A stretch of 64,000 nucleotides of DNA from Oceanispirochaeta sp. (GTDB lineage: Bacteria > Spirochaetota > Spirochaetia > DSM-2461). Position numbers: made by a program. Positions 23,301-26,300 of this stretch are shown piece by piece (the stretch's first letter is position 1; the number at the start of each line of letters is the position of its first letter). Location: contig CAXXXD010000002.1 of assembly GCA_963663385.2 (NCBI GenBank), positions 992,001 through 1,056,000 on the forward strand. The letters run 5' to 3'.

Positions 23301-26300
23301 CGCCAGCAGGGCAGCTATCCGTTTCCCCTCCGGTCCTGTTTCAGGGGGAGGCGGCTGCCTTTTTTTTCCGATATGCCAACCGGCATATTCCTTGTCATAC
23401 CAGTGTTCAGGCCTGGTTTTCGGGTATTCAGTCGGTTCTTCCGGACGGGGAGGGATGAATTTCATGAAAGAAGTTTAGAGAGTGACCGCCCTTTTTGTCA
23501 AACAGCTTTTTTCAACTCCGGGAGCAGGGAGGAATAATAATTGACAAATGGTAAAATTGTGATAAAATATAGGTAAAATAAAAACAAAATTTTATCACAG
23601 TTTGTACGAAATGCTCACGGCCTGGTTATGCAAGCGGGCTTGAGAGTTTTTACAGGAGGAATGATAAAAAGTCTTCATAGGCTTGTGGATTGATACAATG
23701 TTCTAAACATCGTTTAGAACAGCCAGGTTACTGTTCGCCATTTTTACTGGTCTCCGAGACCGTACAGGAGAATGAAGAGCCGTGACCGAAACATTCAATG
23801 GTCTTCGAGACCGGATAGGAGAATGGAATCAATTCACCGTACAGGCGCTGTTTTAGGCAATAGGAGCGAAGGTATGAAGATGAGTATCGGAGTGGATCTG
23901 CACAAATCCCAGTTAACAGTCTGTTTCCTGAGTGATGATAGAAGCATTTGTGAATCAGGAATGTATCCGACCTCTGAGGACGGTTACAGAGCATTTCTTG
24001 AGAAAGCAGTGTCCTATACAGAAGAGGGCCTTGATGTTAGGGCTGCAGTGGAATCAACAGGAAATGCCCGGTTCTTCCGTAACAAGCTATTGCTAGCAGG
24101 GATTGAGGTGGTGGTTGTGAATACACTGAAATTCAAAGTTGTAAATGAATCAGTGAAAAAGACGGATAAGCATGATGCCAGAACTCTAGCAGAGTTCTTG
24201 GAAAAAGATATGCTTCCCGAATCACAGCTTTGTTCTCAGGAGAGTGAGGATATCCGTAGAGTTCTTAAATCCAGAACTATCCTTGTTAAATCAGTCGTAT
24301 CTTTGAAGAATCAGGTTCACGGACTGCTTCTAGGGTATGGAATTGAAACAAAAAGAGCTGCGCTGCAGAGTAAAAAAGAAAGGCAGCGCATCCTCATCGG
24401 TCTCGTGGACCATAGGAGTTTCGGAAGCGCTGCCAAAGCGATAGAACCGCTGCTTTCTACGATAGATCAGGTTTCGAACCAGGTCAAGCAGTTAGAGAAA
24501 GTCCTGCTGGAACTTGTAAAGGAAGATGAGGATGTACAGTTATTGCAGACGATCCCGGGAGTCGGATTGATAACGGCATCGACTATTAGGGCCTATACGG
24601 ATGATATCAAGCGGTACGCCAGTGCCAAGAAGTATTCGGCTTATGCCGGTCTTGTACCATGGGTGCAGAACTCCAATGAGACGATTCATCATGGGCATAT
24701 AACAAAGAGAGGGGCTGTAGAACTGAGAACGGCATTTGTTCAGTGTGTTATGGGAATGGTTAGAACTCGGAAAACGACTGGCAATTACCGTATCATGACG
24801 AAGTACAGAGCGATGAAGAAGAACAAGGGCAGCGGCACGAGTATTATCGCCTCTGCAAGAAAGATGAGTACGGTAGTGTACTCCATATTGAAAACCCGTG
24901 AACCCTTTGATCCGTTGAAGATGGTTCCGGATGATAAGTACTTGAAGATGCAGGCGGCTGCATTCAATGCCGTAAAAACTGGGTAATCCGGTTCAATTGT
25001 AAGCTTGTTAATAGGCTTATGATTGACTTTTTATAGGAGTAAAAAAATGACTTCAAGAGAAAGAGTTCTGGCCTCTGTCAACCACAGGTCTCCCGATCGG
25101 GTTCCCATTGACCTCGGCGCTACTCCCAGTTCCGGGATATCGGCGGTGGCCCATAACAATCTGATTAAACATCTGGGCTGGGCGGATTCTCCCACCCGGA
25201 TCTACGATGTGGTGCAGCAGCTTGCCCAGCCTGATGAAAAGCTGATAGAGCTTCTGGGGGTGGATATTCTGGATATTGGCCGGACCTTCAATACGTCTCC
25301 CGAAGACTGGTATGAGATAGATCTTCAGAATGGGGGTAAAGCGCAGTACCCGGTCTGGTTTCGTCCTGTCAAAAATGAAAAAACCGGAGAGTGGGAGGCT
25401 TTTCACCGGACCAGCGGGCGAAAGATTGCGTCCATGCCCGACAGCGCCACCTTCTATGATCAGTCATACTTCCCCTGGGTGAACGGATACCCGGACAGCC
25501 GGCAGGGGATGGAAGATGCTCTGGATGAGGCAATGGACCATATCCTCTGGTCCCATCTTGTGCACAGTCCCTGGGACCATGCGGGAGATGCGGGTTTTTT
25601 TGATACCCTCAGAAGCAACACCCTTGCCCTGCGGAAATCCAGCGATAAAGCCCTGATGGTTGTAAACGGGTGCAACCTTTTTGAATGGGGCACCTTTCTC
25701 CGCCGTATGGATAACTTTCTGATGGACCTCTATGTGGAACAGGATAAAGTAGCCATGCTGATGGAGCTGCTCATGGAACGGCATATGAAGGGCCTTGCCA
25801 AAACCTGCGAAGCCGTGGGGGATACGGTTGATATTTTGCGTTTCGGTGATGATCTGGGTATGGATTCGGGGCCTTTTATGGGACTGGAAGTGTACCGGGA
25901 CCTTTTTCATGAACACCGTAAGACTCTCTGTTCCCATGTGCATCAGAACAGCAGCATGAAAACCTTTCTCCATACCTGCGGGTCCATGCATCAGTATATA
26001 CCCAGCCTGATAGAGGAGGGAATGGATATTATCAATCCCGTTCAGACCAACTGCCGGGATATGGAGGCGGATAAACTGAAAGAGGAATTCGGGAAGGATA
26101 TCGTTTTCTGGGGCGGCGGAATGGATCCCCGGGTAATTCTGAATACGGGAACCCCGGAACAGGTCCGGGAAGAGGTCCGGAAGCGTCTGGACGTATTTAC
26201 TCCCGGGGGCGGATATGTTTTCAACAATATTCATAATATTATGCCCGATGTGCCGCCGGAAAATATCCTGGCCATGTTTGAGGAAGTTCAGAAATATCAG

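What a model noticed while it worked through the whole genome (the two positions that open the first line are those of the whole stretch)
23654..25039. IS110-family element that inserts into Shine-Dalgarno sites, with a bridge RNA that reads SD plus start codon
All ten copies of a 1386-bp IS110-family insertion sequence sit inside the ribosome-binding site of a host gene: each ends in ...TATAGGAG and the start codon of a co-oriented gene follows 6-8 nt later, and the left flank ends in TAC in most. I read it as a bridge-RNA-guided recombinase whose target loop is programmed for the translation-initiation region itself (TAC-AGGAG-TAAAAATG), so that it lands between promoter and start codon, hands its own AGGAG to the gene and puts the gene under read-through from the element. 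If true this is a natural bridge recombinase aimed at a near-universal, gene-proximal motif, a ready-made scaffold for inserting cargo exactly at gene starts, and a new way for [...]
Evidence so far: BLAST of one copy: 10 copies, 99.4-100% identical. Pattern scan: in 10 of 10 the right end GACTTTTTATAGGAG is followed after 6-8 nt by the called start of a gene on the same strand (g00453, g00318, g00923, g01348, g01511, g02026, g01428, g02149, g02362, g02142); the left flank ends ..TAC in 6, ..AC in 8, ..C in 9 of 10. Empty sites in congeners: orthologues of g00923 and g01348 carry an uninterrupted AAGGAG/GAGGAG/GGGAGG 6-8 nt before the start at that place (6 loci read, 4 more came back on the other strand and were not read; calls 95-97). 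The 221-nt 5' non-coding region holds two look-alike modules, each a hairpin GGTCT(C/T)CGAGACC between guide-like arms: module 1 CATTTTTAC-hairpin-GTACAG [...]
(Added by a program. Inside this text positions count along the whole contig: contig position 992,001 is position 1 of the stretch shown here. "Call 12" and the like, gene names such as g00115 and contig names such as C1 are that model's own, and its searches are not shown. The text may have been shortened before it was handed on; [...] marks where a part breaks off. The agent that wrote the report below was given it as the finding of a first reader that could run no searches.)

Follow-up and report, generated by a model that had tools for sequence, protein, structure and literature searches.

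The report
Bridge-RNA insertion sequence aimed at ribosome-binding sites
A small mobile element of a known RNA-guided family (IS110) carries a guide RNA set to the ribosome-binding site and start region of genes, so every copy sits just in front of an intact gene; a mycobacterial relative, IS900, has a printed target motif that reads as the same kind of site, but the orientation and the guide layout here are unusual.

Summary
The genome has 10 near-identical copies. Each lies in L-flank|AGGAG…AGGAG|R-flank, and an ATG of a real gene on the same strand follows 6-8 nt later. The mobile unit is 1381 bp plus one shared AGGAG. A near-identical strain has this very site empty, with exactly 1381 bp missing.

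It is an IS110-family DEDD/Ser recombinase with a structured 5' RNA holding two loops. Across about 40 related guide classes:
- The donor loop and the element ends stay constant and match each other.
- The target loop varies and covaries with the flanks.
- Seven nt of its 3' arm (ACAGGAG here) equal the two bases before the SD plus AGGAG.
- Its 5' arm (CAUUUUUACU) complements the A-rich spacer.
- CAU stands at that place only in SD-type loops, facing the ATG at the commonest spacing of 6 nt. The register is loose.

- The target motif printed for IS900 reads as SD plus start codon, so the target class is probably not new.
- A conserved terminator-like hairpin sits 5 nt before the regenerated SD, so read-through into the gene is doubtful.
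- The strand polarity of both loops is inverted relative to IS621, which explains the co-orientation with the gene.

I rate it a new variant of a known kind.

The parts
23541..23568 (+). Promoter-like site of the host gene (TTGACA, 16 nt, TAAAAT, with TG). It is now separated from its gene by the element.
   Evidence: 11 of 12 consensus matches. Consensus match only; function not tested.
23652..23658 (+). Left junction word ACAGGAG: target-derived AC+AGG plus the shared core AG. It is identical to nt 3-9 of the 3' arm of the target loop.
23659..25039 (+). Mobile unit of 1381 bp, counting the shared AGGAG once (equivalently 23654-25034).
   Evidence: an X9 contig skips 1381 bp; 10 copies.
23659..23673 (+). 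Left end. GAATGAT is complementary to the donor-loop 5' arm. It also holds the subterminal inverted repeat ATAAAAAGTC (23664-23673) and a -10-like TGATAAAAA (23662-23670).
   Evidence: These bases are invariant in the 36 aligned relatives.
23714..23856 (+). Bridge-RNA core: an outer stem (about 23714-23723 with 23847-23856) encloses the target loop and the donor loop.
   Evidence: 97.1% of cells paired, and 12 of 32 pairs with compensatory changes (0 of 500 shuffles reach this). Conserved G-U pairs fit the + strand only.
23737..23748 (+). Target loop, 5' strand GCCATTTTTACT. It is complementary to AG+TAAAAATG of the gene-sense strand, and CAT is at x3-x5.
23749..23761 (+). Hairpin 1, GGTCTCCGAGACC
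23762..23776 (+). Target loop, 3' strand GTACAGGAGAATGAA. Nt 3-9 (ACAGGAG) form the 7-nt guide and nt 1-2 are linker.
   Evidence: nt 3-9 match the left flank in 44-58 of 58 sites; nt 1-2 match in 10 and 25 of 58.
23788..23799 (+). Donor loop, 5' strand GAAACATTCAAT. x3-x9 (AACATTC) is complementary to the left end GAATGAT in 6 of 7 positions.
   Evidence: 6-7 of 7 positions in 31 of 31 loci, with one compensatory pair (L069).
23800..23812 (+). Hairpin 2, GGTCTTCGAGACC
23813..23827 (+). Donor loop, 3' strand GGATAGGAGAATGGA. Nt 3-9 (ATAGGAG) equal the last 7 nt of the right end.
   Evidence: 39 of 39 loci, in three covarying variants (30/8/1).
23874..24986 (+). Recombinase gene, 370 aa, with DEDD residues D8/E60/D98/D101 and Ser267. 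Its own RBS at 23860-23876 reads ATAGGAG-N7-ATG.
   Evidence: PF01548, PF02371; NF033542, 228 bits against a cut-off of 140; IS621 8wt6, E 9e-16, with the Ser aligned.
24993..25034 (+). Right-end hairpin (15 bp, -15 kcal/mol) followed by CTTTTTAT, which looks like a terminator. It holds the -35-like TTGACT (25023-25028) and the inverted repeat GACTTTTTAT (25025-25034).
25033..25039 (+). Right-end word ATAGGAG (donor-derived ATAGG plus core AG). It now serves as the SD of the downstream gene.
25040..26306 (+). Spacer TAAAAAA, then the ATG (25047) and the intact URO-D-family gene (419 aa).

Best explanation
This is an active or recently active IS110-family element: 1381 bp plus a shared AGGAG. 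It encodes a DEDD/Ser recombinase and, upstream of it, a bridge RNA of roughly 145-190 nt with two internal loops.

Donor loop. It holds the joined ends of the element. Its 3' arm AUAGGAG has the sequence of the last 7 nt of the right end. Its 5' arm (A)ACAUUC is complementary to GAATG(AT) at the left end.

Target loop. It holds a gene start. Its 3' arm ACAGGAG has the sequence of two bases plus the AGGAG Shine-Dalgarno word. Its 5' arm CAUUUUUACU is complementary to the last AG of the SD, the A-rich spacer and, with a loose register, the ATG.

Crossover. Strand exchange is at the AG that ends AGGAG (CT on the other strand, as in IS621). Nothing is duplicated. The target's ACAGG stays at the left junction. 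The element's ATAGG plus AG rebuilds a perfect SD in front of the untouched spacer and start codon.

Polarity. Both loops read the strands opposite to those read by IS621, so the recombinase gene ends up pointing the same way as the host gene.

What is shown by sequence: the copies, the flanks, the empty site, the RNA structure covariation and the guide/flank covariation.

What is inferred:
- that the RNA is made;
- that a circle forms, with a junction promoter (TTGACT, 17 nt, TGATAAAAA across the core);
- the chemistry of the reaction;
- the effect on the host gene. I expect reduced expression rather than simple read-through, because a terminator-like hairpin ends 5 nt before the SD.
For: Family:
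- Pfam PF01548 (8.7e-21) and PF02371 (4.6e-19).
- NCBIfam NF033542 'IS110 family RNA-guided transposase', 228 bits against a cut-off of 140.
- IS621 (8wt6) and ISCro4 (9t56) are the only PDB hits. The nucleophile Ser and the DEDD residues align.

RNA:
- Consensus fold of 36 relatives: 97.1% of cells paired, against 90.6% in shuffles and 31-49% when the partners are slid.
- 12 of 32 pairs have compensatory changes; 0 of 500 shuffles reach this.

Donor loop:
- 3' arm nt 3-9 equal the last 7 nt of the right end in 39 of 39 loci, in three variants (ATAGGAG 30, ATAGAAG 8, ATAAGAG 1).
- 5' arm x3-x9 complements the first 7 nt of the left end at 6-7 of 7 positions in 31 of 31 loci, with one compensatory change.

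Target loop, 3' arm:
- Positions 3-9 match the left flank in 44, 54, 57, 55, 58, 58 and 58 of 58 sites. By majority within a class that is 24-29 of 29 classes.
- All four bases occur at the -1 position.
- Positions 1-2 match in 10 and 25 of 58.
- Summed score 151.6 against a shuffled 95.5±6.7 (maximum 118.1).

Target loop, 5' arm:
- Best at offset +1: 141.5 against a shuffled 91±8, 0 of 2000.
- Within the non-SD type: 73.5 against 52.3±5.6, 0 of 1000.
- Within the SD type: 75.5 against 69.0±2.6, 7 of 1000.

In this genome:
- Occupied sites match the 5' arm at 3.9 of 7 positions, against 2.3 for 1319 SD-like ATG sites (p about 5e-5). They match the 3 upstream bases at 2.5 against 0.97.
- Both genome-wide best sites (3+6) are occupied.
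- With a flexible register, 8 of 10 occupied sites lie in the top 90 of 15278 AGGAG sites and all 10 in the top 485.

CAU and spacing:
- CAT at x3-x5 occurs in 17 of 17 SD-type guide classes and in 0 of 23 others.
- SD-ATG spacing is 6 in 30 of 48 sites, against 305 of 1319 background sites.

No duplication: relatives have unlike words at the two junctions, for example CACGGAG|LE and ATAGAAG|flank, which share only AG.

Mobility: the X9 contig lacks exactly 1381 bp at this site.

Same habit in relatives: an ORF follows the right end in 6 of 6 copies in G013, 1 of 1 in G009 and 15 of 15 in OY776510.
Against: - No RNA data. No listed sequencing run is on record as RNA, so expression of the RNA is unshown.
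- The 5' arm matches flanks only about 50% per position, and its register is not fixed. None of the 10 sites here has the 5-nt spacing that contiguous pairing from the core would require. The donor loop uses a register 1-2 nt different from the target loop.
- Part of the 5'-arm signal could be A/T composition.
- Among the 90 best-scoring sites only 48 are SD-like, yet 8 of 8 occupied ones are. Some selection against insertions inside genes is therefore also needed.
It was not called on the natural RE|LE junction of L129.
- The empty allele in X9 carries T, not C, at -1. Excision at the core does not predict this.
- My first pattern parsed a loop in only 40 of the 80 metagenome loci. A looser look at the other 40 recovered 21 target loops. 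By eye they all agree, but they are not in the counts.
- Rows L050 (degenerate hairpin) and L129 (no genomic right flank) were dropped before the counts.
- Relatives are not independent samples.
Confidence: 0.8

Rival explanations
1. Only the 7-nt half-site ACAGGAG is read by the RNA ('half-match' insertion). On this view the restriction to gene starts comes from purifying selection against insertions inside genes and from a general taste for A/T-rich DNA, and the CAU of the 5' arm does not touch the start codon.
For: - 3'-arm covariation is near-perfect, while 5'-arm matching is about 50% per position.
- SD-ATG spacing varies from 4 to 9 nt.
- No site here has the contiguous register.
- A 2026 preprint title and abstract (10.64898/2026.08.31.748434, search listing only) reports half-match recombination in this family.
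Against: - Only 198 of 1452 ACAGGAG sites are SD-like, yet 10 of 10 insertions are.
- Within SD-like sites the occupied ones still match the 5' arm better (p about 5e-5).
- Non-SD relatives show 5'-arm/right-flank covariation (0 of 1000 shuffles), including 8 of 8 contiguous pairs in L111.
- CAT is fixed at x3-x5 in 17 of 17 SD-type loops and in 0 of 23 others.
Confidence: 0.12
2. It is an ordinary transposon that duplicates a 5-bp target (AGGAG) and recognises it through the protein, with no RNA guide.
For: AGGAG flanks every copy on both sides. The empty site has one AGGAG.
Against: - Relatives with the same ends have different words at the two junctions, sharing only AG.
- In this genome the 7-mers differ at -1 (C on the left, T on the right) in 9 of 10 copies.
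- The bases beside AGGAG covary with an RNA loop across 29 classes.
- The protein is an IS110 DEDD/Ser recombinase, a family described as making no target duplications (PMC8141618 introduction, passage).
Confidence: 0.02
3. The element works mainly as a reversible gene switch. Insertion uncouples the gene from its promoter through the right-end terminator, and seamless loss restores it. The SD targeting would then be kept because it makes silencing harmless and reversible.
For: - The terminator-like hairpin before the SD is conserved in relatives.
- The SD, the spacing and the ORFs are intact in 10 of 10 copies.
- The site is polymorphic between near-identical strains.
Against: There are no expression data and no evidence that the host benefits. 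The hairpin stem is A/U-rich next to the U-run, so termination may be weak. The hairpin may instead belong to the donor site or to the -35 region.
Confidence: 0.25

Closest known systems
IS621 / ISCro4 bridge recombinases (IS110 family; Durrant 2024 PMC11208160; Hiraizumi 2024 PMC11208158)
   Same: - Same two protein domains, with DEDD plus Ser.
- The RNA lies upstream of the gene, with a 5' stem-loop and then a variable first loop and a conserved second loop (section 6 of PMC11208160).
- The loop strands have almost the same lengths. The 3' strand is 15 nt: 2 linker, 3+4 guide, 2, then 4. A U before and a G after each hairpin correspond to U59/G72 (passages of PMC11208158).
- A CT core is read by a terminal AG of the 3' arms.
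- The donor-loop 5' arm is in the IS621 register.
   Different: - Polarity. [quoted passage not shown] Here the 5' sides are complementary to the top (coding) strand of the right flank and left end. The 3' sides have the top-strand sequence of the left flank and right end. The core therefore reads AG on the coding strand.
- The 5' arm of the target loop does not keep core-binding bases (x10-x11 vary) and pairs 1-2 nt further from the crossover.
- Target and donor share 5-7 nt (AGGAG), not 2.
- There is a 10-bp subterminal inverted repeat.
- The targets are gene starts. The 16 natural target-loop classes listed in Supplementary Data 2 of PMC11208160 all read ...CTAC/CTAT/CTCA words and none reads CTCC.
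IS900 of Mycobacterium avium subsp. paratuberculosis (IS110 family)
   Same: The target motif CATGNNNNNNTCTCCTT (PMC8141618, passages) is the reverse complement of AAGGAGA-N6-CATG, which I read as an SD plus start codon. Insertions are almost always outside coding sequence: 51 insertion sites lie outside coding sequences and three genes are disrupted.
   Different: - The IS900 motif is printed in the element's own orientation, so its transposase points against the host gene. Here the transposase points with it.
- IS900 carries an element-long antisense ORF (hed) that borrows the host signals (same paper). Here the longest antisense ORF is 88 aa.
- The spacing in the IS900 motif is 8 nt after AGGAG, against 6 here.
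- No paper in the held library holds both 'IS900' and 'bridge RNA', so its guides have not been compared.
- I did not fetch IS900, so relatedness of the proteins is untested.
IS1111-type elements with seekRNA (Siddiquee 2024, PMC11187229)
   Same: DEDD transposase, RNA-guided site choice and subterminal inverted repeats (abstract).
   Different: By my recollection, not checked in the paper, the non-coding RNA region of IS1111-type elements lies downstream of the transposase. Here it lies upstream, as in the IS110 type, and yet subterminal repeats are present.

Membership tests
IS110-family bridge-RNA recombinase element | N-terminal DEDD RuvC-like domain and C-terminal Tnp domain with a serine nucleophile | tested here: met
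   PF01548 and PF02371. NF033542 at 228 bits against a cut-off of 140. D8/E60/D98/D101 are invariant in 3 relatives. Ser267 aligns with the IS621 serine in AGLTPRRYES. The number S241 is taken from PMC11208158 passages, assuming a 2-residue offset in the PDB chain.
IS110-family bridge-RNA recombinase element | No target-site duplication; a short core shared by donor and target | tested here: met
   The junction words differ in relatives and share only AG. The empty site lacks exactly 1381 bp.
IS110-family bridge-RNA recombinase element | Structured non-coding RNA with two internal loops, the first variable and the second conserved | tested here: met
   No Rfam family matched, so this rests on my own alignment.
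IS110-family bridge-RNA recombinase element | Loop arms complementary to target and donor, with covariation | tested here: met
   The 3' arms match strictly and the 5' arm of the target loop matches loosely.
IS110-family bridge-RNA recombinase element | IS621-type strand polarity (5' side pairs with the bottom strand, 3' side with the top strand, in the element's own orientation) | tested here: not met
   Both loops are inverted. As a control, I tested the 5' arm for sense identity with the left flank. Within the non-SD type there is no signal (32.0 against 29.9±3.2). Within the SD type the signal is weak (53.3 against 47.4±2.9, 30 of 1000).
IS110-family bridge-RNA recombinase element | Circular intermediate whose junction forms a promoter for the RNA | tested here: inconclusive
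   In a circle, TTGACT (25023-25028) and TGATAAAAA (23662-23670) would lie 17 nt apart. A head-to-tail RE|LE junction exists in contig L129. The scan tool does not call a promoter there.
IS110-family bridge-RNA recombinase element | RNA made; RNA-dependent recombination | not testable with these tools
   No RNA run is listed.
IS110 type as opposed to IS1111 type | No subterminal inverted repeats (abstract of PMC11187229) | tested here: not met
   The 10-bp repeat ATAAAAAGTC / GACTTTTTAT lies 10 and 5 nt from the ends.
IS900-like SD-targeting elements | Target is an SD word plus start codon | tested here: met
   That the IS900 motif is an SD plus start codon is my reading of the printed motif.
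IS900-like SD-targeting elements | Transposase antisense to the host gene, with an element-long antisense ORF (hed) | tested here: not met
   Co-oriented in 10 of 10 copies. The longest antisense ORF is 88 aa.

The most novel reading that the evidence does not exclude
This would be a lineage of bridge recombinases in which the crossover site is turned round relative to the element's genes, and in which the left guide is tethered loosely, tolerating 0-3 nt between crossover and duplex.

That combination would let one guide RNA address the whole class of 'AGGAG, spacer, ATG' gene starts. The element would insert co-directionally, rebuild the SD from its own end and cut the gene off from its promoter with its own terminator. 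It would act as a seamless and reversible gene-start switch.

SD targeting appears to be ancestral in the lineage. It was later reprogrammed to tandem heptamer repeats by changes in the target loop alone.
Probability: 0.3. Interest if true: 0.75.

Novelty: new variant of a known kind. Interest (0 to 1): 0.55.

Why it matters
Mobile-element biology. The element shows how an RNA guide can be aimed at a functional class of sites rather than at one repeat. About 90 good sites exist in this genome and 8 of them are filled. Every hit leaves the gene, its SD and its spacing intact.

Bridge-recombinase engineering. Three testable points follow:
- Natural loops work with inverted polarity, so cargo orientation relative to the crossover site is not fixed.
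- The left guide seems to tolerate variable distance to the crossover, which bears on off-target rules.
- The same protein and donor loop serve very different natural target loops: SD-type, CACGGAG-type and AGGGGAG-type.

Older literature. It offers a sequence-level explanation of the IS900-type target preference, which the held literature does not connect with bridge RNAs.

Tried and rejected
- Rfam scan of 23400-25300 at E up to 1: no family matched.
- Expression: no listed holder of the stretch is on record as RNA, so expression could not be examined.
- Earlier findings of this scan: nothing to show.
- Older IS900-family papers PMC93472 and PMC335114 are not held. PMC4607514 and PMC13630536 held nothing on targets.
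- Bridge-RNA papers searched for SD or start-codon targeting. I searched 'IS110'+'bridge RNA'+'ribosome binding site', 'insertion sequence'+'IS110 family'+'Shine-Dalgarno'+'target site', 'bridge RNA'+'Shine-Dalgarno' and 'IS900'+'bridge RNA'. I also read passages of 10.64898/2026.10.21.760802 and 10.1101/2025.10.25.684509. None describes such a target. bioRxiv supplements are closed and may hold target tables.
- Contiguous IS621-register pairing of the target-loop 5' arm (x9 opposite +1): no signal. The scores are 53.0 against 46.9±4.3 and 44.1 against 41.8±2.3.
- Canonical polarity (5' arm identical in sense to the left flank). Over all classes there is a signal at one shift (85.3 against 67.6±5.4). 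It vanishes within the non-SD type and is weak within the SD type. I rejected it as a composition effect.
- Junction promoter: the scan tool does not call it on L129.
- One search failed with a script error and was repeated.
- In one search two of the four references (L021, L086) were mis-set, and those two folds mean nothing.
- Orthologues in four congeners are too diverged to serve as empty sites.
- ISfinder could not be searched, so a named relative may exist.
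Full report
**What is there**

Window 23654-25039 is one of 10 full-length copies in the 5.3-Mb genome. Eight are identical and two carry one SNP each. Every copy reads L-flank | AGGAG GAATGATAAAAAGTC … GACTTTTTAT AGGAG | R-flank.

- The left flank ends TAC in 6 of 10, AC in 8 of 10 and C in 9 of 10 copies.
- An ATG on the same strand follows after 6 nt (5 copies), 7 nt (3) or 8 nt (2).
- The ten ORFs are 98-689 codons long and all hit Pfam families: URO-D-like, MCP, H+-pyrophosphatase, MdcD-type ACP, DUF6588, GNAT, GDPD, Zn-ADH, GFO/IDH/MocA and an α/β-hydrolase.
- After the copies are removed in silico, only 1776 of 15278 AGGAG sites (11.6%), and 198 of 1452 ACAGGAG sites (13.6%), precede a start codon with an ORF of at least 80 codons. 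So 10 of 10 is far from chance.

**Boundaries and the empty site**

AGGAG stands at both ends, so the mobile unit is 1381 bp plus one shared AGGAG. A contig of run X9 is otherwise about 99.7% identical over 343 nt. It joins 23646 to 25028 and skips exactly 1381 bp. Other contigs of X9 and X10 show copies at sites not occupied here, with left flanks again ending AC before AGGAG.

One oddity remains. The empty allele reads TTTTTAT-AGGAG, with the T of the element's right end where G000's left junction has C. This is either a SNP at a guide-read base, or loss of the element within the TTTTTA part of the 12-nt near-repeat that flanks it. I could not decide between these.

**The protein**

The 370-aa ORF (23874-24986) has DEDD_Tnp_IS110 and Transposase_20 domains. 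It scores 228 bits on NF033542, 'IS110 family RNA-guided transposase', against a cut-off of 140. In the PDB it finds only IS621 and ISCro4 (E 1e-15). Ser267 aligns with the IS621 serine, and D8/E60/D98/D101 align with the DEDD residues.

**The RNA**

The 5' non-coding region folds below shuffles (z -3.1). No Rfam family matches it.

An alignment of 36 relatives gives an outer stem that encloses two hairpin-capped internal loops.
- 97.1% of cells are paired, against 90.6% in shuffles and 31-49% when the partners are slid.
- 12 of 32 pairs have compensatory changes, and 0 of 500 shuffles reach this.
- Conserved G-U pairs (for example U-G in 36 of 36 at the base of hairpin 1) fit the + strand only.

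The layout equals that described for IS621. A variable first loop is followed by a conserved second loop. A U precedes and a G follows each hairpin. The 3' strand is 15 nt long (passages and section 6 of PMC11208160; passages of PMC11208158).

**Relatives**

- One copy in congener G009 (75% nt identity) and six in G013 (71%).
- Fifteen in a Spirochaetia MAG, OY776510, and eight more genome loci.
- 80 metagenome loci at 51-79% aa identity.

My first pattern parsed both loops in 40 of the 80 metagenome loci. A looser pattern on the other 40 recovered 21 target loops, 17 of SD type and 4 of other types. Read by eye they agree with what follows, but they are not in the counts.

**Donor loop**

- Nt 3-9 of its 3' arm equal the last 7 nt of the right end in 39 of 39 loci, in three covarying variants (30/8/1).
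- x3-x9 of its 5' arm complement the first 7 nt of the left end at 6-7 of 7 positions in 31 of 31 loci, with one compensatory change.

**Target loop, 3' arm**

In 58 sites of 29 guide classes, arm positions 3-9 equal the left flank plus core in 44, 54, 57, 55, 58, 58 and 58 sites. Positions 1-2 match in 10 and 25.

The base before AGGAG is C in G000 (guide C), A in G013 (guide A), T in OY776510 (guide T) and G in L048 (guide G). This is a 7-nt guide, like the extended right target guide of IS621.

**Crossover**

In relatives whose target word differs from the donor word, the two junctions share only AG. An example is CACGGAG|GAATG… at the left and …ATAGAAG|AACACGG at the right. So the crossover lies at AG (CT on the other strand). 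Nothing is duplicated, and the right junction keeps element sequence. In G000 the SD in front of each gene is therefore ATAGG from the element plus the core.

**Target loop, 5' arm**

CAUUUUUACU is complementary to AG+TAAAAATG.

In this genome:
- Occupied sites match at 3.9 of 7 positions, against 2.3 for 1319 SD-like sites (p about 5e-5).
- The only two sites genome-wide with 3 upstream plus 6 downstream matches are both occupied.
- With a register free between 0 and +3, eight occupied sites lie in the top 90 and all ten in the top 485 of 15278.

Across 40 guide classes (69 sites; L050 and L129 dropped):
- The arm covaries with the right flank best one nt out of the contiguous register: 141.5 against 91±8, 0 of 2000.
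- Registers 0 and +2 are weaker.
- Within the non-SD type: 0 of 1000. Within the SD type: 7 of 1000.

CAT stands at x3-x5 in 17 of 17 SD-type classes and in 0 of 23 others. At the +1 register it faces an ATG 6 nt after AGGAG. That spacing is found in 30 of 48 sites, against 305 of 1319 background sites.

So the start codon is probably read, but loosely. None of the ten sites here fits contiguous pairing, and the donor loop uses a register 1-2 nt different. Among the 90 best sites only 48 are SD-like while 8 of 8 occupied ones are, so some selection against intragenic hits is also likely.

**Polarity**

[quoted passage not shown] Here it is the reverse for both loops.
- The 5' sides are complementary to the coding-strand sequence of the right flank and the left end.
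- The 3' sides carry the coding-strand sequence of the left flank and the right end.

A control for the canonical arrangement is negative within the non-SD type and weak within the SD type.

The printed IS900 motif, CATGNNNNNNTCTCCTT, is given in that element's own orientation (PMC8141618, passages). It is the reverse complement of the site here. This fits canonical polarity for IS900 and an inverted layout here, and it explains why this element is co-oriented with the host gene. I did not read IS621 or IS900 sequence itself, so this rests on the papers' wording.

**Consequences for the gene**

A promoter-like site (23541-23568, 11 of 12 matches) now lies 1.47 kb from its gene. A 15-bp hairpin (-15 kcal/mol, z -5.1) followed by CUUUUUAU ends 5 nt before the SD. 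A hairpin at this place recurs, with different sequence, in the relatives' right ends. Nothing could be measured.

In a circle, TTGACT and TGATAAAAA would lie 17 nt apart across the core. Both are invariant in relatives, but the scan tool does not call this promoter on the natural RE|LE junction of L129.

**History**

A tree of 44 recombinases has one clade of 10 that are all SD-type and include G000. The other clade has 34 members: an SD-type basal branch, a nested SD-type group of six (99/99 support) and 27 members aimed at CAC(G/A)GAG, CGC(A/G)GAG or AGGGGAG-type words. The minimum is two changes of target type. The donor loop and the element ends are the same throughout.

**Comparison and novelty**

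It is a member of the IS110 bridge-RNA family on every feature I could test, except strand polarity and the absence of subterminal repeats.

The motif printed for IS900 reads as an SD plus start codon. The passages seen give the motif and the insertion sites but do not name it so, which means the target class is probably not new.

The following are not in the papers I could search and are absent from the 16 natural target-loop classes of Durrant's Supplementary Data 2:
- the explicit guide/SD/ATG reading;
- the co-oriented, SD-rebuilding layout;
- the inverted polarity;
- the loose left-guide register;
- the natural retargeting.

ISfinder and the bioRxiv supplements could not be seen.

Noticed in passing
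L075-L133 (metagenome loci): Sister elements with the same ends and donor loop carry target loops for CAC(G/A)GAG, CGC(A/G)GAG, CACAAAG or AGGGGAG words. These words stand in tandem arrays 8-10 nt apart in the flanks, and the two arms read two neighbouring repeats.
   Followed up: partly
L129:1400-1460: After a full copy there is a head-to-tail junction, right end ATAGGAG directly followed by the left end GAATGATAAAAAG and a second bridge RNA. This is a circle junction or a tandem dimer. In L075 two copies lie 8 nt apart.
   Followed up: partly
window 23646/25028, run X9: The empty allele of this site has T instead of C at the base before AGGAG. That is the base of the element's right end. Excision at the AG core does not predict this.
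   Followed up: partly
window 23860-23876: The recombinase's own ribosome-binding site reads ATAGGAG-N7-ATG. This is the same 7-nt word as the element's right end and one base from its own target word.
   Followed up: no
window 23664-23673 and 25025-25034: A 10-bp subterminal inverted repeat, ATAAAAAGTC / GACTTTTTAT, overlaps the -10-like and -35-like words. In a circle it would frame the crossover like the arms of a classical recombinase core site.
   Followed up: no
L034, L039, L040, L045, L046 (OY776510): Five of 15 insertion sites share a palindromic GCATCCATGC(A/G)GG block 12-15 nt upstream of the SD. L039 also has a second left-end start 108 nt upstream. A loose end of run X10 at 23648 equals the left flank of L045.
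   Followed up: no
window 21807-23465 (-) and 26430-27737 (-): The divergent upstream gene is an AraC-type regulator fused to a periplasmic-binding domain. A 435-aa ORF of unknown family lies convergent downstream of the URO-D-like gene.
   Followed up: no
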